From assembly GCA_026026165.1 (NCBI GenBank), contig JAPEUD010000020.1:124001-188000 (forward strand): a stretch of DNA of 64,000 nt, given 5' to 3'. The first letter of the stretch is position 1. Every line of letters begins with the position of its first letter. This document shows, in pieces, positions 1,258 through 52,690 of this stretch. The stretch comes from Sarea resinae (lineage: Eukaryota). Position numbers and translations under genes: made by a program. The notes under the pieces were generated by a model. The model was not told the origin of the DNA, ran no database searches, and saw only the letters and a program-made list of their open reading frames with translations.

Positions 1258-1839
1258 GACGGAATGAAGGCTTTCTCTGAAGAAAAGAGCTGTAAGATTA
1301 GAAGACAATTTCAAGTGCTTAGGAAGCTTCCTATGCCTGCCTATGCTGTAAAACACCAACTGAATCGACTACTCCCTTTATTGTATCTTTAATCACCAGT
1401 GAATTCTGCGTATATGGTCTCCCTCGTGTGCGTCAACGGTCGTGCACGTCGCTCTATACCTTACCGTACAGGGCGTGCACCTTTGACCGGCTGAGTCACG
1501 TGTTGAGACGTTGCTGGGGGCTAGAACTCACAGCTCGGCTTTCAAAGAACTCGCGCCTCAGTTGCCTCATTCATCACTGCGCCCAAAATCACCGACCCAT
1601 CTACCCTCACCTCAACCTCCATCACTTGCTGCTTGCTTGGAGCGGAAGCACGCAGTCTCTTGATCAAAAGCGCTCATCCACCGTTGTGCGCTGTATGTGA
1701 ACGGAGACGGAGACAACTTGAAGTCTTGTGAGGCTTCCTTCATCTCTCTCCTGCGCGCGCCACCCTCACTGGCCATTGCCACCGACTTCTCCCACCTTCG
1801 TTGAGCGCTTCGACTGCAGCCTTGGATAATCGGGACAAG

Positions 1840-4800
1840 ATGGATAGCTATGCTGAGCCTTATGAGGATGGATACTACGGTGAGGAAGAGGACGATGGGG
1901 TCACGGCTGAGGACTGCTGGACGGTCATCTCGTCGTTCTTTGAATCCAAAGGTCTTGTCTCGCAACAGCTTGACTCCTTTGACGAGTTTGTTACCACTAC
2001 GATGCAAGAACTCATCGAGGAGAATTCTCAGCTCACGCTCGACCAAAACGCCCCACAGTCGGATGATGACCGGGACCCCATCGCCTTACGACGGTATGAG
2101 ATCAAATTTGGGACCATGCTTCTCTCCAGACCGGCCATGACCGAAGGTGATGGGAGTACCAGTGTGATGTTGCCACAAGAAGCACGGCTTCGAAATCTGA
2201 CATATTCGAGTCCGCTGTACCTCGAGATGACGAAGAAGGTGATGGTTGCTCGAGAGAGGCAAGCAATTGAGCCAGCCGAGGGTGAAAACCCCGATCTCGA
2301 GGCCGAGGGCGAACGACAAGGGCCGACATACCTGGAGTGGGAAAACGAAGACGGTGATGACGACCAAGAGCCTACCAAGGTCTTCGTGGGCAAGCTCCCC
2401 GTGATGCTCAAGTCCAAGTATTGTATTCTCAGAAAGATGAGCGAGCAAGAGCTGTACGCCTTGAACGAATGTCCCTACGACCAGGGAGGATACTTCATCA
2501 TCAACGGAAGTGAAAAGGTTCTTATCGCCCAGGAGAGAAGCGCTGCAAACATCGTGCAGGTGTTCAAGAAGACAGGTTCCCCGACACCGTTCGTGGCAGA
2601 GATCCGAAGTGCAGTGGAGAAAGGTTCACGCCTCATTTCCAGCATGCAGATCAAGCTCTTCTCCAAGGGTGAGGGGAATAAGGGTGGCTTTGGGCAGACC
2701 ATCAAGTCAACGCTGCCATACATCAAGTCTGATATTCCCATCGCTATCGTGTTTCGGGCTCTAGGGGTTGTGTCTGACGAGGATATCCTGAATCACATCT
2801 GCTACGATCGCAACGATACACAGATGCTGGAGATGCTTAAACCGTGTATCGAAGAGGCCTTCGTTATCCAAGATCGGGAAGTGGCGCTTGACTTCATTGG
2901 CAAGCGTGGCAATTCGCAAGGTATCACTCGCGACAAGCGTGTCCGATATGCCCGAGATATTATGCAAAAGGAATTACTGCCTCATATTTCGCAGAAGGAG
3001 GGCAGCGAGACAAGAAAGGCTTTCTTCTTGGGATATATGATCCACCGGATGCTCCAATGTGCTCTGGGCCGCCGAGAAGTGGATGATCGGGATCATTTCG
3101 GAAAGAAGCGTCTTGATCTGGCCGGACCCCTACTTGCGAATCTCTTCCGCATGCTCTTCAACAAACTTACGAAAGATGTCTACAAGTACCTTCAAAAGTG
3201 TGTCGAGAATAACAGAGAATTCAATTTGACCCTAGGCGTCAAGTCGACAACCATTACGAATGGCTTGAAATATTCTCTGGCTACAGGTAATTGGGGTGAC
3301 CAGAAGAAGGCGGCTTCTGCAAAGGCCGGTGTCTCCCAAGTGCTCAATCGGTACACGTTTTCATCAACGCTTTCACATCTTCGGCGGACGAATACACCTA
3401 TCGGTCGTGATGGTAAAATAGCGAAGCCGAGACAATTGCACAACACGCATTGGGGTCTAGTCTGTCCAGCAGAGACACCGGAGGGACAGGCTTGTGGTCT
3501 TGTGAAGAATCTTGCGCTGATGTGCTATATCACTGTCGGTACACCCAGCGATCCAATTGTCGACTTCATGATTTCAAGAGAGATGGAAATTCTTGAGGAA
3601 TATGAGCCCCAGAGGTCGCCCAATGCTACCAAGGTTTTTGTCAACGGTGTCTGGGTGGGTATTCACCAAAATCCCGCTGAGCTTGTGAGGACAGTTCAGG
3701 AATTGCGAAGATCGCATATGATTTCACACGAAGTCAGTTTGATCCGTGACATCCGTGATCGAGAATTCAAGATCTTTTCGGACGCTGGCAGAGTCTGTCG
3801 CCCGTTGTTCGTCGTTGATAATGACCCTAAGAGCCCGAACCGAGGCAATCTGGTCCTTAACAAGTCCCACATTGCGCGCCTCGAAGAGGACAAGGAACTC
3901 GACTCGTCTCTTGAACCGGAAGAGCGGGAAGAGAAGATCTTTGGCTGGAAAGGGTTGGTTGATAGTGGTGTGGTCGAGTATGTCGACGCAGAGGAAGAGG
4001 AGACCGCGATGATAGTCATGACGCCAGAGGACCTGGAGATATCCAGGCAACTCCAGGCCGGTTATACCATTCCGGAAGATAACTCTGACCCCAACAAGCG
4101 GGTGAAGGCTCCGATCAATCCTACTGCACACACTTGGACACATTGCGAGATTCATCCTAGTATGATACTGGGTATCTGCGCCAGTATCATTCCTTTCCCT
4201 GACCACAACCAGGTTCGTATGCCTTATACTTGAAATATTATCAATACTGACAAGTCTTCTAGTCTCCTCGAAACACCTACCAGTCTGCTATGGGCAAACA
4301 AGCAATGGGTGTCTTCCTCACTAATTACGATCAGCGCATGGATACCATGGCGAACATTCTCTACTACCCTCAAAAGCCGTTGGCGACGACTCGGTCCATG
4401 GAATTTTTGAAGTTCCGCGAGCTTCCTGCCGGCCAGAATGCGATCGTGGCAATCGCCTGTTACTCCGGATATAATCAAGAAGATTCCGTCATCATGAATC
4501 AAAGCAGCATCGATCGAGGTCTGTTCCGAAGTCTCTTTTACCGGGCGTATACGGATCAGGAAAAGCGTGTTGGTATGTCTGTGGTAGAGCAATTTGAGAA
4601 GCCTTTCCGCAGCGATACGCTCAAACTCAAGCACGGGACTTACGACAAGCTGGACGACGATGGTATTGTGGCCCCCGGTGTTCGTGTTTCCGGCGAGGAT
4701 ATTATTATCGGAAAGACTGCTCCTATCGCTCCTGATGCCGAGGAGCTGGGCCAGCGCACGAAACTACACATCAAACGCGACGTTTCAACTCCACTCCGTA

Positions 4801-5715
4801 CCACCGAGAACGGCATCGTCGATCAGGTGCTTCTCACGACAAATGCAGAGGGTCTGAGGTTCGTCAAGGTCAGAATGCGGACGACCAAGATTCCTCAGAT
4901 TGGCGACAAGTTTGCTTCTCGTCATGGTCAGAAAGGTACCATTGGTATTACTTACCGCCAGGAAGATATGCCCTTCACCAGCGAAGGTGTCGTCCCTGAC
5001 ATCATCATTAACCCCCACGCCATCCCGTCCCGTATGACAATCGCTCATTTGATCGAATGCCAACTGAGCAAAGTATCATCTCTGCGTGGTTTTGAAGGCG
5101 ATGCCACCCCCTTCACAGACGTCACTGTGGACTCCGTTTCCAAACTCCTCCGCGAGCATGGTTACCAATCCCGCGGCTTCGAAGTCATGTACAACGGGCA
5201 CACAGGACGTAAGCTCCGTGCGCAAGTCTTCCTAGGCCCAACGTACTACCAGCGTCTACGACATATGGTCGACGATAAGATCCATGCTCGTGCTCGCGGC
5301 CCTGTTCAGATCCTCACAAGGCAGCCCGTGGAAGGTCGTGCGAGAGACGGTGGTCTGCGTTTTGGAGAGATGGAACGTGATTGTATGATTTCGCACGGTG
5401 CCAGCGCCTTTTTGAAGGAGCGACTCTTTGAGGTCTCGGATGCCTTCCGAGTCCACATCTGTGATATTTGTGGGCTCATGACCCCAATTGCGTGAGTCCT
5501 TCCTTTCCCTGAGAAAGTTATTATTTGCTAATCTCTTGTGCCAAATCAATAGAAATCTGAAGAAGAACTCCTTTGAATGTCGGCCCTGCAAGAACAAGAC
5601 CAAGATCTCGCAGGTTCACATCCCCTACGCGGCGAAGCTGCTTTTCCAAGAATTGGCTGCCATGAACATCGCCACACGCATGTACACTAAGCGGTCTGGG
5701 ATCACGGTCCGTTGA
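1840..5715 (+). CDS. RPB2: DNA-directed RNA polymerase II second largest subunit
   Basis: Hallmark motifs [41 protein letters not shown] and [11 protein letters not shown]. Introns at 4213-4262 and 5492-5552. Confidence 0.99.
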
Positions 5716-8151: not shown

Positions 8152-8308
8152 CTTTATTTCGTGGGCGGTTAGGGTGGATGAGACGGTTGTGGCGGAATTG
8201 AAGTTGTAGGAGGCTTGGTGGCAGTGGTGGTCGAGGAGCTTGACGATGAATGGTAGATGGATGGATGGTAGCTGCAGATGATGCTGTTCGCAAATTATTG
8301 TTGCACTA

Positions 8309-8329
8309 TTACCTCAGCAGGCTCAGACC
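8309..8329 (+). repeat. Left terminal inverted repeat
   Basis: 20/21 identity to the reverse complement of 16108-16128. Confidence 0.92.
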
Positions 8330-8412
8330 ATAGATCACGTGGACCCGGATTAACATCCGGCCCGTTCGGATGAATGACTAATCATTCCCAAAAGGGAAAT
8401 CCACGAGATTAT

Positions 8413-8450
8413 GGTCTGAGGCAGATTTACCAACTTTGTATGGACTGAGC
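8413..8450 (+). repeat. Left subterminal inverted repeat (pairs with 16003-16041)
   Basis: ggtctgaggcagatttaccaactttgtatggactgagc versus the right-end reverse complement ggtctgaggcacttttgaccgactttgtatgggctgagc. Confidence 0.88.
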
Positions 8451-8825
8451 GCGAGTTATCAACGCGTTGCGGATATTCAACTCAGCATATCTCTGCAATC
8501 ATATCCGCAAGCATCTTCAAAACCTAATCACCTATGAAGAATATATAAGGCTATGTAATGGTCTGTTTTACATCTTATAAGGATCATTGGTTTAGGATAT
8601 CTTATGCCTCAAAGTCAAAAACGCGTTAGTAGGAGCGAGCGGCTTCAATTCTAGCGGATATGCTAATTCGTGACTGCTACAGCAATATCCGCTATATACC
8701 TGCAGCGAATGATTTCTGATACACTCTAGGTCAATTATAAGCGCCTGTGAGAGCTGTTTTTATCTGTGCCACACCTGCACAACCACCTTGCTATCGACTA
8801 TATCTGCTGTTGTTGCTTAGGTTAG

Positions 8826-11237
8826 ATGCCGCTAAAGAAACACACCTGCAGAGGGTTATATAACTGCAAGGTAGATGAAGAGATAGAGCAACAACGGCGC
8901 GATAGAATAGCCTATAATAGACTGTCAACAGACAAAGAGCGTTAAATATAGAAGCTGCAAGATAACATTTAACAGCTCTATAATGCAGACAAGGAGGAAC
9001 AACAAGAGGCTATTAACGCTATTATCCGCGCGATATATCTATATAGCAGACAGCTAGGGCAGCTGACAGCACTCTGCTAGTTGCTATATACTAAGCAAGA
9101 CTTATTCCTTGTCGCTAAGACCTTGTTTAGAAAGAGCATGATAATGCAGTCGCTCCTGTGCCTAGTCTGCAGGGCTATAGTTCTTGTTATCCTTCTGTTA
9201 AATAAGATCGGCAAAGAGCAGACCGCGCAGATAAGAGGACTCACTAGTATAAAGCCTGTTTATATAACAGGAGATAATAACAACTATCTGCTGCTTAAGG
9301 CTGTCTGCACAGGCGAATATACCTATATCCTAATGTCGCTAGAACTAGCTGTCAGCCTAAAATTAGAGCGGATATAGAAGGATGTTAGACTGCAGGCGCG
9401 GATATCGCTAGTAGTCTTAGATAAGGTGTATCTAGTGTCGAATTAGTCCTCCTTCTGCCGTTCTTATGCTAGTCTTAGCATACTGCGCGGATTACTTAGA
9501 ACTAAGCCCTGGTTCGCCTGCACTGCAACGCTAGATAATAATACGTTCGCAGATGTACGCTGACTTACAGGCTTTAAAGAAGATGTTAAGGTCGTCTGCA
9601 CTTCTATTAATTGTCTAGAACTAGCAATCGTCTGAGAATATATACGCAGAGGCGATAAGCGATCGTTCAATTGCCTCTACTTTATTATTAAAGGCTGCAG
9701 CGCTAGTATCAGGGATACTCTATCGTCTGCTGCAGATGTAACGTCTAGGACTAGCGGACTAGACGCTATAGCATCAGCTGCGCTTAGTCTAGACTGTTTA
9801 GCATCAGGTCAATATGCTAGTCAGTATTACTAGAATGATCGTCTAACTCTGCAGCGGATAATAAAGACAGTTGTCTTTATAAACAGCAAGCGATTGCTAA
9901 AGGAAGCTTGTGACAAGGTGCGCAGATAGTTGCAAGAGCGCGGATATCTAGCGCGGCTAGCAATGCAGACTATTAGAGTATACTATGCTACGCTTGCAAC
10001 GAACAACAAGGAGCAGATATAGCATGAATTTTCAGAACAACTGTCTAGGATCTAGGTATTGTTCTGCTCTGATGCAGTTGCACAAGGAGCAGATATCGCG
10101 GATATTAAGCGTGTTATCCACTTTAGTCTGTTCTGCGACCGCCTTGCGAGCCTAGTCTAGCAACGTTTTAGTCGTGCAGCACGCGGCAGCAGTCAGAAGG
10201 GTGAGGCAATACTGCTTGTTAATGACTAGTGTAAGGGTCTAAAGGTGCAGACAAACCTTAGGGGTATTAGCAAGACTGACAGTCAGCAGCGGATCAGGGC
10301 TACTGCAGCGCAGACACTTGTTTCCTTATCCTAGTCAAGTCAGCTAAGTTAAGAATACAATTGCAGAGATAGTGAGGATTCTGACAATATGAGTAATGTC
10401 TCTGTCTCTGCCTTAATCGCACTGCTAGACGAAGCAGACAGTCAACTACAGACTATGCGAGAATTGACTCTAGGAGGATCGCGTGTAGCCCTACCCGCCG
10501 AATTAAGGCCTTGTCCTGCGGATTTAAGGCCTAGAAGCGTGTATAAACAGAGAGCAGACCTTCTACGTCCGCTATATGACTTTGCGAACAAGGAAAAGGC
10601 TTGCCTGCAGCGGATATTCCTGCGGACCTTTAACAAAGACTTAGCAGATAATAGCACTAAAGAGCCTGTTCCTAGCAGACGCTGCTGTTCGAACTGCAAT
10701 CTAGAACTTCAGCTGTCTAAAAGGCCTGACTTCAGACTATTTAGCAGTGATATGCTGCGGTCAAAGAACAACAAGCACTTAATCAGCCGGATTAAGCAAT
10801 AGATATTAGACTAGGCGCGGACGAAATACAGCGATATGATTTGGATCCTAGTCCTAGGATGTGTGATTTTGTCTGATGTTGTTCAGCAGATATGCAATCA
10901 GAAGCATAGTATCTACAACGCAGAAACGCTGCTTCGCTATGCAGAATAGGATAGAGGAGACTTTAACAAGGCTAATCTAGACTTATTAGCGGCGTTTATC
11001 TGCGCGGATAGTTAGGTTCCGCGTTCATATAGGGATGCACTGATTATAGCTAATTCTCCTTTGTTACTAACGCCACTAGAGTCAAATTAACTGTCTGACC
11101 AGCCGCTAACAGCCACTAATTATCGCTGTAAATCGATGACTATTAACAAGTTAGCGTCAGACAAGGCACTAAAGAGACGGCGGCTATTAGCTCCTATTAA
11201 TATAAATAGAAATATCTGCAGCGAACAAAGGAAGTAA
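8826..11237 (+). pseudogene. RecQ-like superfamily II helicase of the transposon, many RIP stops
   Basis: One reading frame carries motif I AKTLFRKS (from AKTSFGKS), motif II DKVYLVSN* (from DEVHLVSNW), motif III PWFACTATL, motif V CSDAVAQGADIADIKRVIH, motif VI QRFSRAAR and a Zn-binding ACLQ...RCCSNC. Confidence 0.87.
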
Positions 11238-11312
11238 ACAAAGGCAGACTAAATAGCAGTGAATATCTACAGCGAACAAAGAAGGTAAACAAAGGCAGAC
11301 TAAATGACAGTG
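11211..11312. repeat. 51-bp tandem repeat, two copies, inside the transposon
   Basis: aatatctRcagcgaacaaagRaRgtaaacaaaggcagactaaatRRcagtg twice; 5 mismatches, all G/A. Confidence 0.9.
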
Positions 11313-11542
11313 AATGTGAAGCTATTCGCTTGTATAGCTGCATTAGTTAGCAGCACACCTTCGCATTCGACCTCTTTGTTCGTCTTATAACCCACCTGAC
11401 TATAACATCCTTATCAACATCCTTATCAACATTATCAGCATTATCATTATCAACATCATCAGCATTATTATTATCAACATCATCACTACCCTTATTGACA
11501 GCCTATTAGCAGCGATTATATCAGCGTTAAACAGCTACTAAG

Positions 11543-12883
11543 ATGCCGCCTAGTGAAGCAGACAATAATGAATTGAACTAGTACGTTAAGGCTGTGATTA
11601 AGGAGAGGGCTAGAGCACTAGGACCCTTGTAGGCTATAGCCTAAGGTTATTATCTGAGACAACAACTGATGTGATAACAGCAGAGAGATAGTTAAGACAA
11701 ATAAGACAGTAAGAGTAGCAGCGAATGTTAGCGGACTACTGTCATTACTTCTAGTATGTTGATCCGCCCTATAAATGACTTAGTCAGCCGCAGCTGACAA
11801 GACAGCCGCATTTCAGCCGCTAAGAGATAGAGGCAGCAGAAGAGGTGGCCGCCTACAATAAGAACCCGCGTTCAGATGATCTGGCAAGCGTTAAGAATAT
11901 AGCCGCTCCTCCTAGTGATACTGTACTGTCTATGCCGCGTAGCCTGCTATCTCTGCTGTCTGATAAACTATCTTCGCCGCGGTCACCAATGTCTCTGCAG
12001 TCTCTGCCGCCTTAGACGCTGTCTCTGCCGCCCTAGACACTCTCTCTGCTAGCTCAGCTAGCTCAACTAGCTCAGACACTCTCTCTAGATAGTCCGCCAC
12101 TAAGCCAGTCCACTTTTCAGGATAGTACGTGGGACGTCTGCTGTCTGATTCAGCCTGACTAGCTAGCCCCTGATCTAGCCGTGTGGGATAGCCTTTTAGA
12201 GACTCGCTAAAAGGCATATGCTCACGCTGATCTCATCGTGAATGATCTGTACTAGGGCGTTTCACTCACTAGGAAATGCGAAAGGTGCGTTGATAAGGGC
12301 ATTCTGTGTATAATCTATTAGAGTAGGCTGAAAAGGCAGATAGTAAAGCTAGAGGACAACTGTGCAGGGTGCTGTGTGGCGGGCAAACCGTGCCGCTATA
12401 ATGCAGACGCAGACGATAATAACAAAGACAATGATGCGTAGCCTGTAAGCAGATCAGCAGTGCAGATATCAAACATCACTAACCCTGTATCAAGAGCAAC
12501 CTCCTCTGCAGCAGGTGACACGTCGATTAGCTAAACAAGCAAATAATAATTAAGACAATAGTCTACTGCAAAAGAAGGTATAACAGATCTATCTGCACTT
12601 ATTAGGCATGAGCTGACGTAGTATATAGAGCCGCAAGAAGGACAGTCAAAAGCCTGTTAAGGAGAGCGATGTCACTAAGCAAGCACTTGTACAGCCTACT
12701 GCAACGCCTTCGACAAATATCTGCACTAGCAGCGAATCAATCATGCTATCCGCACTAGGACAGGGTGCTATAGAACGGCAGGTTGCAGACCTAGGCGCGG
12801 AAGTGACCCACCTTAGGGCAGAAGTGGCGCAGGTATCTAGAAACATCCTTAAGATATTGGCTATTGTCTGCTGTAGAGCCTAG
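11543..12883 (+). pseudogene. Third transposon gene: Pro/Ser-rich region, Zn2Cys6-like Cys motif and C-terminal coiled coil (RIP-degraded, probably spliced)
   Basis: 12271-12399 reads RKCERCVDKGILC-x17-CAGCCVAGKPCRY. The C-terminus reads IERQVADLGAEVTHLRAEVAQVSRNILKILAIV. Intron-like GT...GCTGAC...AG segments lie near 11755-11806 and 12578-12628. Confidence 0.6.
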
Positions 12884-12945
12884 TAGTTAGCTTAGTAGTT
12901 AGTTCATTAGCGTGTCAGTGCTGTCACGCGTTTTCTAGTATTAAA

Positions 12946-15879
12946 TCAAGTCTTTTGCCTGCGAACATAATATTATAGAGTGATGATATTAGAACATTAC
13001 ACTATAGAATATCCGCTGTGCCCTAGCCGCACACGCTACATATCCTGCGCCTAACAAGATGTCAATATGACTGTATATTGATAGCAGATATACAAGTAAA
13101 TGCTTATGTCTAAGCCTACTAAGGCTTGCACTGTATCCTCCTTAATATCTCTAACAACTTAGTCGCCTAGTTCTATATATCTGCTGTTAAACGAAGGTAA
13201 TCCTCTGCGCGCTAATTGATTAACGCCTAACTGCAGTAGACTAGGTGCAACATGCGCGGATAAGCGATCTTAGCGGCAGATGATTGAATCTTAAGCGATC
13301 AGATCAGCGAGACTTTTGATATCTTCTGCAGCAGACCTGTCTAGATAAGATGCGTTAATCTGCTCGCCGAACGAGAATTCGAACTGAGCCTGCAGCAGAG
13401 CAAGATAGCTGCTCATTAACACTGACTATTTGAACAGCGCTGTTACATCGAATGTTGAGTTGCCTTTCGTCTGCAAAAGGGTCTTTAGCTCAAGGTTTAG
13501 GAGTTCGTTCAATCGATCGACCTTGAAGAAGGCGTCTGATCTAGTATAGTTGCTGACAAGACTGTTTGCAAGGATCGCCTGCTGCAGATATCGATCACAG
13601 ACAGGAGTAGATATTAGCTGCTAAAGACAAATCATTTCTCGCGAGTAGTTGTGCGATAAACTCCCACTGAAATATAGACAGCTACAAGCAATAACGCGGC
13701 AGAGCAACCTAATATCCGCGCGTTTAATAGCATGCCTTAACGTTATATATGTCTCGACGTAGTGTAAGAAGCAGACATGATTAGAATACTCTAAATCATG
13801 CGGCAAACGCTGTTTATAAGAGCTTCGCTTTTGATTGGGCGCTGAAGAAGCTATATCCGCTAGGTCCTTGCTTGTTTCGTACTAGGCTAGTTCCTAATAG
13901 GCGGTAGTGGAAAAGACTCTTTAGCGGATATCCTCTACCTGTCAAAGAAAATCCGCGGGACTTAGTCAGCAGATATATTCAGCTATCTAACCTTTATGCC
14001 TGTTCTTAAATCTAGCAGGCAAATCCGATATGAATAGAGCAACGATCTGCGCCTGAAAGCTATGCCAGACTAGTTCTTGCTAGTAGTAGAATAGCGCTTT
14101 ATCCGCGGGTATATTCCGACGGCTAAGGAAGTTGATATGCGAATAGAGGGTTAAGTATTGCTAGATATTACTCTCTCTGCTATAATGTGACCTAACAATC
14201 AATGCTAAAAGGTTCATCTGCAAGTAGAAGAGACTAGGCACTAGTAATGCCTAGGCGAGGCGATTGTAGGCATCCGCCGCCTCTACCTGCTTAATTTGGT
14301 AAGAGCAGATAAGGCTTGCTGTTTTCTAATCTCTGAATATTAAGACCAACTGTTTCTCAAAGTTGACTGTATCTTAGCTGAGCTGGCGGACAAATATGTT
14401 GTCAAGCACATTATATGTGCCTGAAATAGAACCCTTACTCTTAGTGATCAGTCCTAGTGTGAGATGCTCTGTCTGCAAGGGCAGAAGAACATCAACGCAT
14501 AGCATCTGCAGGAATTAAACACTATCCGCTGCGAATATAGCCTCTGTCTGTTCTAGAAACGCTGCGCAGATAGAACTAGCAATAAGGTGAGTCGATATCT
14601 CAGTCTGTGTCTTGTCTATGAAATTCCTGTCTGCCTTAAGCAGATCTATTACCTCTATACAGATATCTAGATAGTACATGTCTTAAGTGAGTGGTCTGTT
14701 TAGCAAGCATTGTCTGCGCAGTAGCTTTCTAGTCGTGTATAAACGAAAATCTCTGGTATTACCTACAGTCTAGTGTCGCACCCTTTGTTGCCACTCAAAG
14801 TTATTGTAGACCACTGTGAAATCCCACGTCTGCGCCGCGGAGGAGATATTTGCCTTGTTTTAGTTAGCTGGGTCCGCTGAATAGAAGGCGTTAATATCAC
14901 GTTCCTTGCTCTGCTCTAATATCTGCAGCTTCTGCATATCAATTGTGCGATATCTGTCCACAAGTCTAAGGCTATGCAGCACGCTTAACGCTTAGCAGGT
15001 CAGCCCTGTATCCTTTAAATATAGTCCTAACAGGCGCGCGAAACAGTTTATAGAAGTCCTTGAACAGCTAAGGCTTAGTATTAACGTAGTCATAACTATT
15101 CGGCCTTTATCTGCTAGGGTTCTCTGCTAATACACAGTGCTAGACCGTTTTGCCTCTGCTGCACTGCGGATAAGACGTGTAAGCATAGGCGCTGTCTGCT
15201 TAATAGTGTCTGCAGTGCTAGAGATATTAAGCTCCTTAAAACCTAGGTCCTTATTGTATCGCCTAAACAACAGACATTCGCCCTGCAGCCTGTCTAGCTC
15301 ATTGCAGACAAGAGTAATAGCGCTGTTAACAACTGCAGCTTAGCCTTTGTCTGCACTAATCAGAAGTGTACGAAGACCCTTATAACTAAGGATAAGGTTA
15401 AGAAGGTCTTCTCTTCTCTTTATCTGCCGCTGCTTGTTACATTCCACAGTGCTCTCTAGCTAGAGTTGTATAAAGCAGATAGGCGTTATCTGCTATTCCT
15501 GCAGTTGCCTTAGGATGCCTTAGACCTTTTCCTCTAGGCTTAAACGCTTAGTTGTATCAGGAGATAAAGTAGAAGGAGAAGATAACAGTGGCGGATCAGA
15601 TATCTCAGGCGATAAACGCGAATATAATAGTAGATATGCAGGCGAATCAGATAACTTAGGCGTTAAAAGCGAATCTAAAGACAATAATAGCGAATCAGGC
15701 ACCTTAAGCAGTGATAGCAGATGTATTAATAACAGTGGTGATAGTGGCGAATCGAGATTAGGCTATGACTGCAGTGCAGATAGTAGAGTTTGCAGTCTCT
15801 AAGGTGTATCTGCAGCAGATAAAGCCTCTGTCCTGCAGCGCTTCCTGCTAGTTCTAGAAAAAGGAGCGGATGCTGACAT
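12946..15879 (-). pseudogene. Academ-type (DUF6589-like) transposase, RIP-degraded; 3' end approximate
   Basis: Minus-strand motifs FTVVYNNFEW (from YDN), LVLIFRD*KT (from GDQKT), LVPSLFYLQMN (from PGLFHLQMN) and LRHAIKRADI...YFSGSLSHNYSRE. Confidence 0.82.
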
Positions 15880-16002
15880 TCTAATCAAATATAGAGCAGA
15901 TCTAGACCTTTCTTTTCAGCCTCTTTTCATTGCAGACAGCGTTGTGGTTGCAGATATCTTATGGTTTAAAGTTAATAATAATCGCCTCCATACAAATGAC
16001 CC

Positions 16003-16128
16003 GCTCAGCCCATACAAAGTCGGTCAAAAGTGCCTCAGACCTCTGGCTGGTCAATTGCCTAGTTAGGCAATAGTGGTCCGTGCTTAGCGGACCACGTGAC
16101 CGAGCGAGGTCTGAGCATGCTGAGGTAA
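16003..16128 (-). repeat. Right subterminal inverted repeat (16003-16041) and right TIR (16108-16128)
   Basis: Reverse-complement matches to 8413-8450 and 8309-8329. Confidence 0.9.
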
Positions 16129-16701
16129 GTTGCACTATTAATGTAAGTGTAGTACGGTTGCGCGTAGGCTCGGCGTCTGTGGCTCCAGCTAGCTGCCGAC
16201 TACGGGGTGCGAGCGACGGTGGTCTGGCAGTCAAAGGGGCGTCAGGTCACGTGGCAGGTGTGGCTGGTGGTGTTACGATGAGTAGATGATTTTCAAGGGG
16301 CTACGGGACTAGCAACGGAACACAGAGTAGAAAGCCATGTCAATAGAAAGCCAAAGTGGATTGTTTTATCATTGCAGCCATGGTGCTAACACTTCAGTTT
16401 TGGCATAGGTTGGGAAGAGAGGGGTAGGAGCAGATATTTCGCACTGCAATTGCCTTCGCGGTTAGCGGCCAGGATATTAATCGAAACTCAAAAAGGCTGG
16501 AAAGAAGTTAAGCAATACAGAAGAGCCTCAGTTCCCAAATACATGCCCAATACGCCACTATAGCAATTGCCTTTGTGATCAGCGTGCTAAACGCCAGTAA
16601 TACGCCATCGTCCATTTTCCTTGCACTGATAGGACTAGAAGTGACACTAAGATTCGGTCTTCTAGCTGTCCTGTTCGAGTCTTCTCCAAGAGCATATGTC
16701 A

Positions 16702-51667: not shown

Positions 51668-52690
51668 TGCTTTAGCAAACACTATAAGAAAGACATAGAG
51701 AGAGATATATATACAAGAGCGAGAGAGACACACACACGCACACACGCACACGCACACACGCACGCACGTAGCTAGAGAAAGATAGAAAGAAAGAGAGAGA
51801 GAAAGAATAGTTAAATACAACTCAAACACTAAAGAAAAAGAATAACAACCTATTAGCTAAAAGCTAAATCTCCTTACTCTTTCTTACCTTCTCTTAGTTT
51901 ACTCTACCTACTTACTCTACCTACCTTACTCTACCTTTCTTAGACTACCTAGAAAGAAAAACCCCTCTTATCTAGAGAATAGAAGAGAGTAGAGTAGAGT
52001 AGAGTAGAGTAGATTAAGTAGAGTAGTAAAGGATAGTACAGAGCAAAAGTAAAGAAGAGAAGAAGAGTAAAAGAGTATAGTCGAGTGTAAGAGAAGAAGA
52101 ATCGATATTAAGTAGAGTAGAAGAGAAGAGTAGAGTAGAATAGAGTAGAGTAGAGAAAGTCTAGAAGATAGAGGTAATTAGTAGAGAAGAATCTAGTAAA
52201 AGAGAAGTTAGAGAGAGAAAGACATAGTAGAGTAGAAAAGAGTAGATAATAAAGTAGAGTAGAGTAAAGAAAAGAAGAGTAGAATTATAGAGTAGATTAG
52301 ACTAGACTAGACTAGACTAGAGTAAGAGAGTAGAATAGAGTAGAATAGAGTAAAAAGAGTAGTTGTTTAGAGTAGACTAGACTAGAGAGTAATATATATA
52401 GAGAAGACTAAAAAATAGTAGAATATAATAAAGAATAGTAGAGTAGTAAAGAATAGTAGAAGAGAAAGATAGAGTAGAAGAGAAGAGTAAAGAAAAGTAT
52501 CTATTAAAAGCCTACACTCACACTTACACTTATACTTCTATCTATCTCTACCTCTAACTCTACCTCTATCTCTAACTATATTTATCTATCTTCTTTTTCT
52601 TCTTTTTCTTTACTTCTTCTTTACCTCTTCTTTAATTATTCTCTACCTCTTCTATTTTAGTTCACTTCTTCTACTTTAGTACACTCCTAC
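51668..52690. repeat. AT-rich, TpA-rich low-complexity tract with (TAGAG)n and (CTAGA)n, RIP-like
   Basis: Abrupt drop in GC, very few TG, abundant TAG. Confidence 0.75.

What the first reader, a model, noticed from the sequence alone, without database searches (positions are those of the whole stretch)
11543..12883. Third gene in the AcademH element encodes a Zn2Cys6-like finger and a coiled coil
Seen: between the helicase and transposase, a RIP-damaged plus-strand gene has a Pro/Ser/Gln-rich segment in frame with C-x2-C-x6-C-x17-C-x2-C-x6-C (CERCVDKGILC...CAGCCVAGKPC, 12277-12393). After a probable intron comes a heptad tail (IERQVADLGAEVTHLRAEVAQV). Established: Zn2Cys6 clusters are fungal DNA-binding domains; the extra finger known from some AcademH elements is a PHD type. 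Inference: this is a three-gene fungal AcademH variant with its own DNA-binding regulator, targeting factor or anti-silencing factor. It may be undescribed.
Basis: partly seen in the sequence, partly recalled or inferred. Interest (0 to 1): 0.75.

Follow-up and report, generated by a model that had tools for sequence, protein, structure and literature searches.

The report
Fungal transposon's third, zinc-cluster gene
A fungal jumping gene that is known to carry a cutting enzyme and a DNA-unwinding enzyme here also carries a real, spliced third gene, now broken by mutation in every copy, for an unusual six-cysteine protein that probably bound DNA and helped the element move or stay active.

Summary
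Window 8309-16128 is an AcademH-type element: 9-bp target duplication, RecQ-like helicase, DUF6589 transposase. Between the enzymes lies a five-exon gene (11543-12883) with the six-cysteine motif and a C-terminal heptad tail. It is not a one-off fragment: 13 of 14 transposase loci in this genome have it beside them, across three subfamilies, and the fourteenth is a deletion derivative. Intron positions, cysteines and a roughly 97-residue domain are conserved under purifying selection (p 0.002 or lower, transversions only). Every copy is RIP-damaged; I found no intact copy and no expression data. The domain is Zn2Cys6-like but atypical: just under the Pfam cut-off, with a long linker, an added N-terminal helical part, and without the Gal4 CGG-reading lysine. 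It is therefore not a standard Gal4-type factor. Most likely it was a nuclear, DNA-binding accessory protein acting on its own element; that role is inferred, not shown. Related proteins exist in other fungi, but their genomic context was unavailable. I found no paper describing such a gene in AcademH, but the defining paper was not held. Side finding: both element ends fold into conserved T-shaped structures.

The parts
8300..8308 (+). Left 9-bp target-site duplication
   Evidence: Same 9 bases flank the right end; perfect 9-bp duplications at 13 of 13 copies with both ends in one locus
8309..8329 (+). Left terminal inverted repeat, 21 bp, one mismatch to the right one
8320..8422 (+). Left subterminal fold-back: outer stem closing two hairpins (three-way junction)
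   Evidence: z -8.13, 0 of 200 shuffles fold as well; 6 of 37 pairs changed on both sides among 5 left ends
8907..11207 (+). RIP-broken RecQ-like (SF2) helicase gene; matched span, true ends not fixed
   Evidence: tblastn to copy L041, 52% over 776 columns; L041 pieces hit DEAD, Helicase_C and RecQ_Zn_bind
11543..11628 (+). Third gene, predicted exon 1 (short conserved N-terminal block)
   Evidence: Phase-2 intron after codon 28, 28 and 29 in subfamilies A, B1, B2
11684..11708 (+). Third gene, predicted micro-exon 2
   Evidence: GT-AG introns with branch-like motifs on both sides
11806..12444 (+). Third gene, predicted exon 3: low-complexity region, then the conserved domain
12115..12405 (+). 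Conserved domain of about 97 residues: helical N-terminal extension plus six-cysteine cluster
   Evidence: 54-64% identical between subfamilies without gaps, under purifying selection; model pLDDT 71.9
12277..12393 (+). Six-cysteine motif C-x2-C-x6-C-x17-C-x2-C-x6-C with one TAG in the linker
   Evidence: 71 of 72 cysteine positions kept in 12 copies
12494..12577 (+). Third gene, predicted exon 4; with the start of exon 5 it gives a basic, NLS-like patch
   Evidence: Phase-0 introns on both sides in all three subfamilies; the acceptor reads CAA in this copy and ends in AG in four of the other five
12629..12883 (+). Third gene, predicted exon 5, ending in the heptad (coiled-coil-like) tail from 12770
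   Evidence: Stop-free 84 codons; 9 invariant columns across three subfamilies; heptad counts
13096..15552 (-). RIP-broken DUF6589 (Academ-type) transposase gene; matched span, true ends not fixed
   Evidence: tblastn to L041, 57% over 825 columns; DUF6589 160 bits at 13366-14622
16031..16117 (-). Right subterminal fold-back (three-way junction)
   Evidence: z -6.85, 0 of 200 shuffles; no both-side changes among 6 right ends, which are 90% identical
16108..16128 (-). Right terminal inverted repeat
16129..16137 (+). Right 9-bp target-site duplication

Best explanation
The stretch is a RIP-killed copy of a true third gene of a fungal AcademH lineage, arranged helicase, third gene, then transposase on the opposite strand. 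Before RIP it made a spliced protein of roughly 360-470 residues: a short N-terminal block, a variable low-complexity region, an extended Zn2Cys6-like domain, a basic patch and a C-terminal heptad tail. Shown: the gene is part of the element and was under purifying selection (about 0.95). Inferred: it binds two zinc ions, enters the nucleus, oligomerises through the tail and binds DNA, but not by the Gal4 CGG code (about 0.7). Inferred, weakest: its target is the element itself, the subterminal regions or the gene promoters, where it serves transposition as an accessory factor, by switching on the element's genes or by helping to assemble transposase and helicase on the ends.
For: 13 of 14 DUF6589 loci have the domain beside them; the exception lacks a 2.9-kb internal piece that also removes the 3' part of the helicase. 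Transversions at four-fold sites 12/29, 16/28 and 15/29 against 12/97, 14/97 and 10/97 at second positions, p 0.002 to 7e-6, and the contrast is absent in the two shifted frames. Three introns keep position and phase in all three subfamilies, and the three models are frameshift-free. Best Pfam hit of the least mutated copy is Zn_clus, and 8 of 11 aligned members hit it at E up to 1. Basic patch and heptad tail occur in all three subfamilies. Several outside relatives pair the domain with C2H2-like segments. A precedent for six-cysteine-type accessory genes in a fungal DNA transposon is REP9 (PMC8232023, passages).
Against: No intact copy: the least mutated has 4 stops in 474 codons, the window copy 10 in 362, and one codon in the domain is a stop in 12 of 12 copies. 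The splice models are predictions from sequence. No significant structure match: no Foldseek row at E 0.001, best Z 3.5 (rmsd 5.1, 51 aligned); with the better model 12 of 19 listed Foldseek rows were Zn2Cys6 and only 2 VIA rows reached Z 2, one unrelated. The lysine four residues after Cys2, present in 22 of 27 canonical clusters of this genome, is present in 1 of 24 units of this family. The tail lies 80-130 residues from the cluster, unlike Gal4 (recalled). Nothing here shows a target site. Two-gene AcademH elements are the described norm (PMC10045372 passage names only the helicase as extra enzyme), so the gene cannot be essential for the whole lineage.
Confidence: 0.55

Rival explanations
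1. The protein is an anti-silencing factor: it binds its own subfamily's sequence and keeps it free of methylation or heterochromatin, in the manner of plant VANC proteins (recalled).
For: The gene diverges faster than its neighbours: outside the domain it finds no blastn match between subfamilies, and four-fold transversions in the domain exceed those of helicase plus transposase in two of three pairs (p 4e-5, 0.005, 0.21). This fits an arms race or module exchange. TET/JBP-carrying fungal DNA transposons show that counter-silencing cargo exists (PMC12730594, search listing).
Against: No catalytic or chromatin-reader domain was found. All copies were hit by RIP regardless. The site counts are small (28-29 four-fold sites a pair).
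Confidence: 0.2
2. The protein acts on host genes, for example damping reproduction or the sexual cycle in which RIP occurs, so that the element benefits indirectly.
For: REP9-1, a DUF3716 gene inside a fungal DNA transposon, lowers pycnidia number when expressed (PMC8232023, abstract and passages). A host DUF3716 protein is needed for ascogenous hyphae (PMC10776026, passages). Host-like proteins with this domain exist in other ascomycetes.
Against: The domain is not DUF3716 by score: none of the three element sequences hits it and the profile comparison with this genome's two DUF3716 loci gave E 0.24. There are no phenotype data.
Confidence: 0.1
3. The zinc domain binds protein, not DNA: it is an adaptor or inhibitor of the transposase or helicase.
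For: The Gal4 recognition residues are absent from both halves; the conserved extension is rich in aromatic residues.
Against: Conserved Arg and Lys occur in the extension and after Cys5 (19 of 24 units). Relatives carry the domain with C2H2-like segments and without any transposase domain.
Confidence: 0.1
4. It is a captured host gene riding along without benefit to the element.
For: Related domains occur in apparently ordinary fungal proteins, and two decayed pieces lie outside recognisable elements in this genome.
Against: Purifying selection acted while subfamilies diverged to near saturation at silent sites. No intact host copy was found in this genome; all 15 matches carry stops.
Confidence: 0.05

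Closest known systems
AcademH lineage of the Academ superfamily (Kojima 2020, Mob DNA 11:15; not held, seen only as citations and as summarised in passages of PMC10045372 and PMC10799480)
   Same: Terminal inverted repeats, 9-bp target duplication, a helicase gene, an Academ-type transposase (the link of DUF6589 to Academ is recalled, from no call), fungal host.
   Different: A separate, spliced third gene for a six-cysteine protein. As I recall, the PHD finger of some animal AcademH elements is part of the transposase and not a separate gene. I could not check whether the paper or Repbase lists third frames or folded ends.
Gal4-type Zn(II)2Cys6 binuclear cluster (Pfam PF00172 Zn_clus)
   Same: Six cysteines spaced 2-6-n-2-6; weak but consistent sequence and fold likeness; a heptad segment in the same protein.
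   Different: Linker of 13-17 residues against 5-9; Gly instead of Lys in the first loop; an invariant Tyr three residues after Cys3; an added N-terminal helical part; cluster in mid-protein. The first half resembles Gal4's second half.
REP9-1 and REP9-2 (DUF3716, PF12511) of the IS3EU-like REP9 element of Zymoseptoria tritici (PMC8232023, abstract and passages)
   Same: Accessory genes of unknown function inside a fungal cut-and-paste element of about 8 kb; DUF3716 shows a similar layout before the first cysteine pair, and 6 of 8 outside relatives hit it weakly.
   Different: Different transposon superfamily, 6-bp duplication, no helicase reported; the element's own domain does not score as DUF3716.
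brtn, the extra antisense gene of Boty-like Gypsy elements of Botrytis cinerea (existence seen in passages of PMC8365987)
   Same: An extra conserved gene in a fungal mobile element; unchecked notes of this scan describe its relatives as six-cysteine plus coiled-coil proteins.
   Different: A retrotransposon; smaller protein; I did not compare sequences.
DNA-binding partner proteins of PIF/Harbinger (Myb/SANT) and CACTA (TnpA) elements (recalled)
   Same: A second, non-catalytic element gene that binds element DNA and serves the transposase: the working model for this gene.
   Different: Unrelated fold; binding and requirement are proven there and only inferred here.

Membership tests
AcademH | 9- or 10-bp target-site duplication (PMC10045372 passage) | tested here: met
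   9 bp, perfect, at 13 of 13 copies with both ends in one locus; 8 of 9 bases at the copy split over L043 and L044
AcademH | Encodes a helicase | tested here: met
   DEAD E 6.5e-5, Helicase_C E 4e-6 (over cut-off), RecQ_Zn_bind E 1e-4 in L041; window matches it
AcademH | Terminal inverted repeats | tested here: met
   21 bp with one mismatch in the window copy
AcademH | Transposase of the Academ clade | tested here: inconclusive
   DUF6589 over cut-off and candidate acidic motifs; no Academ reference sequences were available for a tree, and the DUF6589-Academ link is recalled
Gal4-type Zn2Cys6 (PF00172) | Six cysteines spaced C-x2-C-x6-C-x5-16-C-x2-C-x6-8-C (range recalled) | tested here: inconclusive
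   Six cysteines kept, but the linker is 17 against 5-9 in 27 canonical clusters of this genome
Gal4-type Zn2Cys6 (PF00172) | Pfam score over the curated cut-off of 21 bits | tested here: not met
   20.2 bits for L041, 10.9 for the window copy; element loci are not among the 61 genome matches; 2 of 8 outside relatives pass as whole proteins
Gal4-type Zn2Cys6 (PF00172) | Basic recognition loop after Cys2 with the CGG-reading lysine | tested here: not met
   Lys at Cys2+4 in 22 of 27 canonical clusters against 1 of 24 units here, Gly in 17
Gal4-type Zn2Cys6 (PF00172) | Binuclear-cluster fold | tested here: inconclusive
   Top rows are Zn2Cys6 structures but weak: Gal4 Z 3.1, rmsd 2.0, 35 aligned; no Foldseek row at E 0.001
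Gal4-type Zn2Cys6 (PF00172) | Binds two zinc ions and DNA | not testable with these tools
   Needs biochemistry
DUF3716 (PF12511) | Pfam score over the cut-off of 22 bits | tested here: not met
   No hit for the three element sequences; element loci absent from the genome search; hhalign E 0.24 against a two-sequence profile
PHD finger | Cys4-His-Cys3 ligand pattern (recalled) | tested here: not met
   Invariant ligands are six cysteines with no conserved His among them; no PHD hit in Pfam

The most novel reading that the evidence does not exclude
A fungal AcademH lineage is a three-component machine: transposase, RecQ-like helicase and a dedicated DNA-binding protein from an unnamed family of extended, possibly half-swapped (circularly permuted) Zn2Cys6 domains. 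The third protein recognises the T-shaped fold-back ends, or the duplex palindromes that encode them, and loads helicase and transposase there, which would imply a single-stranded or cruciform step in Academ transposition. The same kind of zinc cluster would then have been recruited separately by several unrelated fungal mobile elements.
Probability: 0.2. Interest if true: 0.8.

Novelty: new variant of a known kind. Interest (0 to 1): 0.55.

Why it matters
How Academ elements transpose, and why one lineage needs a helicase, is open. A conserved third gene and folded ends give two concrete handles: a protein whose binding sites can be mapped and a DNA structure that can be mutated. The domain also defines a small unnamed fungal family that Pfam misses. 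Extra six-cysteine genes now turn up in several unrelated fungal mobile elements, which suggests a shared need, such as self-activation or escape from silencing, that has not been studied. The weight is limited: all copies here are dead, function is inferred, and linkage outside this genome rests on unchecked notes.

Tried and rejected
Intact relatives with context: a metagenome scan with the transposase gave 1 weak locus of 2,170 bp among 57 pattern matches, too short to test linkage. Sequencing runs: 1 DNA holder among 3 listed, possibly the source sample, and no RNA holder listed; laying it on 11000-13400 showed only transitions and no gaps or joints, not independent support. Dimer of the C-terminal tail: no verdict, score 0.04. 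Sequence search of solved structures: 6 matches at E up to 10, none significant, 5 of them Zn2Cys6 proteins, the top row unrelated. A search for short relatives returned only a known one, 1 of 112 candidates. Clean circular permutation: the swapped order scored higher in 20 of 24 units, against 0 of 24 canonical controls, but the second half scored above zero against the canonical first half in only 2 of 24, so I keep it as a lead only. DUF3716 and PHD membership rejected. The idea that the segment is the helicase's tail was set aside: the helicase frame ends near 11237 and a separate start with a conserved first exon follows. The two orphan pieces are not in recognisable elements or repeats: no helicase, transposase, terminal repeat or tail within about 5 kb each side. 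Literature: searches found no description of a third zinc-cluster gene or of folded ends in Academ elements; the defining paper is not held and I opened no supplements. A language-model atlas look-up of the domain is missing, so look-alike clusters there remain unknown.

Full report
VERDICT. The third gene is real, belongs to the element and was under selection. Its domain is Zn2Cys6-like but not a canonical Gal4 cluster. Its role is inferred, not shown.

THE ELEMENT. Window 8309-16128 (7,820 bp) is bounded by 21-bp inverted repeats and a 9-bp duplication. A DNA search of the genome found six copies of the middle region at 92-100% identity (subfamily A). Further elements match helicase and transposase at about 65-74% but give no match in the middle; they sort into B1 (L039, L040, L042) and B2 (L038, L041, L043, L045, L046). 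All 13 copies with both ends in one locus have perfect 9-bp duplications. Among the six A copies 1040 of 1043 variable columns are transitions, the mark of RIP. The least mutated copy, L041, gives Pfam hits to DEAD, Helicase_C and RecQ_Zn_bind for one gene and DUF6589 for the gene on the other strand. A passage of PMC10045372 states that AcademH encodes a helicase and makes 9- or 10-bp duplications. That DUF6589 is the Academ transposase is recalled. An automatic gene model matching pieces of L041's middle gene (P0003) is labelled by its source as a Sarea resinae protein, so the host is probably that ascomycete or a close relative; that model skips the cysteine cluster.

THE OBSERVATION. The six-cysteine motif is at 12277-12393 as reported, with a TAG in the linker. 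The heptad tail starts at 12770. Of 300 simulated sequences of the element's length and composition, 2 held any such spacing.

IS IT A GENE OF THE ELEMENT? A search with the L041 domain gave 15 matches in the genome; a DUF6589 search gave 14. Thirteen pair up. The fourteenth transposase (L046) lacks about 2.9 kb that held the 3' part of the helicase and the cluster. The matches on contigs C11 and C118 score identically and may be one insertion held twice. Two decayed pieces lie outside recognisable elements. In 12 copies aligned without gaps (L045 left out as a duplicate of L043), 71 of 72 cysteine positions are kept. Over 97 codons the subfamilies are 52/90, 50/93 and 58/91 identical. Counting only transversions, which RIP does not make, four-fold sites differ at 12/29, 16/28 and 15/29 and second positions at 12/97, 14/97 and 10/97 (Fisher p 0.002, 1.4e-5, 6.7e-6); the shifted frames do not show this contrast. 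Splice models give 362 codons in five exons for the window, 469 in five for B1 (start not fixed) and 474 in six for B2, each frameshift-free, with 10, 16 and 4 internal stops. I chose the donor after the cluster in B1 and B2 by hand to keep frame, after a first choice for B2 failed. The first intron (phase 2, after codon 28-29), the intron after the cluster (phase 0) and the last intron (phase 0, 51-52 nt) recur in all three; the second intron differs in phase between A and B. All have branch-like motifs 13-23 nt before the acceptor. Conserved blocks are a short N-terminal stretch, the domain, a basic patch and the tail (9-10 of 12 a/d positions hydrophobic). Against this: no copy is intact, one codon in the domain is a stop in 12 of 12 copies (TAA in A, mostly TAG in B, so probably hit separately), and no transcript was available.

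WHAT THE DOMAIN IS. The L041 domain scores 20.2 bits on Zn_clus, cut-off 21. A search of 1.84 billion representatives gave 9 hits at E 0.001: P0003 and eight proteins at 30-38% identity. A profile search gave 13 among 4,993 candidates, the named ones from Delitschia, Trematosphaeria, Lophiostoma, Lophiotrema and Amniculicola. Many carry two units and C2H2-like segments; one (P0004) has two units and a C-terminal heptad run like the element protein. None came with genomic context. The family shares Ile, Gly, six Cys and a Tyr, so the unit includes about 45 residues before the first cysteine. AlphaFold2 models reached pLDDT 62.2 and 71.9, with two helices before the cluster. To compare with canonical clusters I took 30 of this genome's 61 Zn_clus loci; 27 held the whole motif in one exon and 3 were dropped. 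Their linker is 5-9 residues and Lys follows Cys2 by four positions in 22 of 27. In the 24 units of this family the linker is 13-17, that position is Gly in 17 and Lys in 1, and Arg follows Cys5 in 19. The first half looks like Gal4's second half: Pfam and PDB alignments run crosswise, and it scores above zero against the canonical second half in 16 of 24 units and against the first half in 1 of 24. The second half fits the canonical first half in only 2 of 24, so a circular permutation is possible but unproven. DUF3716 is a weak neighbour only.

HOW IT MOST LIKELY WORKS. Shown: an element gene, spliced by prediction, selected for protein function. Inferred from fold, basic patch and tail: a nuclear, zinc-binding, oligomeric DNA-binding protein that does not use the Gal4 CGG code. 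Inferred from its fixed place in the element: it acts on the element itself, as an activator of its genes or as a partner that organises the ends, in the way Harbinger and CACTA second proteins do (recalled). I put this at 0.55. Anti-silencing (0.2) gains from the gene's faster divergence: four-fold transversions exceed those of the two enzymes (0.13-0.32) in two of three pairs, on few sites. Action on host development (0.1) has the REP9-1 precedent. A protein adaptor (0.1) fits the missing recognition residues. A passenger fragment (0.05) is nearly excluded.

SIDE FINDING: THE ENDS. Eight of eight ends folded, from A, B1, B2 and a 965-bp non-autonomous copy, form a stem closing two hairpins, z -5.4 to -9.0, with 0 of 200 shuffles as stable. 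Among five left ends 91% of cells pair and 6 of 37 pairs change on both sides (4 of 500 shuffles reach this); the changes come mostly from one subfamily, and the structure was derived from these sequences, so this is suggestive only. The six right ends are too alike to show covariation. A helicase-bearing element with branched fold-back ends suggests a single-stranded or cruciform step; whether the third protein binds these ends is untested.

COMPARISON AND NOVELTY. The element meets the testable AcademH criteria. The third gene is not a PHD finger, not DUF3716 and not a canonical Zn2Cys6 factor by the tests run. Eight literature searches found no account of it, but Kojima 2020 was not held, Repbase was not available, and no supplements were opened. 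Papers seen: abstract and passages of PMC8232023; passages of PMC10799480, PMC5751038, PMC10776026, PMC10045372, PMC12210899, PMC8365987, PMC10294476 and PMC9004415; listing and one reference-list passage of PMC12730594. Unchecked notes of this scan report small cysteine-rich third genes in Academ-type elements of other genomes, folded ends in a mushroom element, and zinc-cluster genes in Gypsy elements. They agree with my reading but are leads, not support, and my domain had no look-alike among them. I rate this a new variant of a known kind, interest 0.55.

Noticed in passing
window 8320-8422 and 16031-16117; same ends in L039, L041, L047: Both ends of the element fold into a stem closing two hairpins (T shape), kept across subfamilies with some compensating changes at the left end.
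   Followed up: partly
ends of A (window), B1 (L039), B2 (L041): The subfamilies look mosaic: the left end of B1 is nearly that of A, while its right end is nearly that of B2, which suggests recombination between subfamilies.
   Followed up: no
window 12115-12405 against helicase and transposase: Silent transversion divergence in the third gene is higher than in the two enzyme genes in two of three comparisons; the middle gene may be an older or exchanged module.
   Followed up: partly
L047:1138-2102: A 965-bp non-autonomous copy with both folded ends and a 9-bp duplication; its left end has a different second hairpin.
   Followed up: partly
L097:4829-5059 and L098:4773-4934: Two decayed pieces of the third-gene domain with no helicase, transposase or terminal repeat nearby; origin unexplained.
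   Followed up: partly
L043, L044, L100 (contig C118) and L045 (contig C11): One B2 copy has about 11 kb of other DNA inside its helicase gene; the C11 copy scores identically and may be the same insertion assembled twice.
   Followed up: no
L013: This A copy is about 330 bp longer, with the break near element position 650.
   Followed up: no
window 11211-11312 and 11407-11502: A 51-bp direct repeat at the helicase's 3' end and an ATC/AAC-rich repeat run just upstream of the third gene's start.
   Followed up: no
window 8426-8451 and 16002-16027: A second, internal inverted-repeat pair of 26 nt (88%) just inside the folded ends.
   Followed up: no
proteins P0005, P0009, P0010, P0014-P0022: An unnamed family of fungal proteins carrying one or two of these extended six-cysteine units with C2H2-like segments; Pfam scores almost all below cut-off.
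   Followed up: partly
window 1732-5495 and 51800-52600: An RNA polymerase II second-largest-subunit gene (label recalled from the sequence) lies upstream; a very AT-rich block of degenerate pentamer repeats lies at about 52 kb.
   Followed up: no
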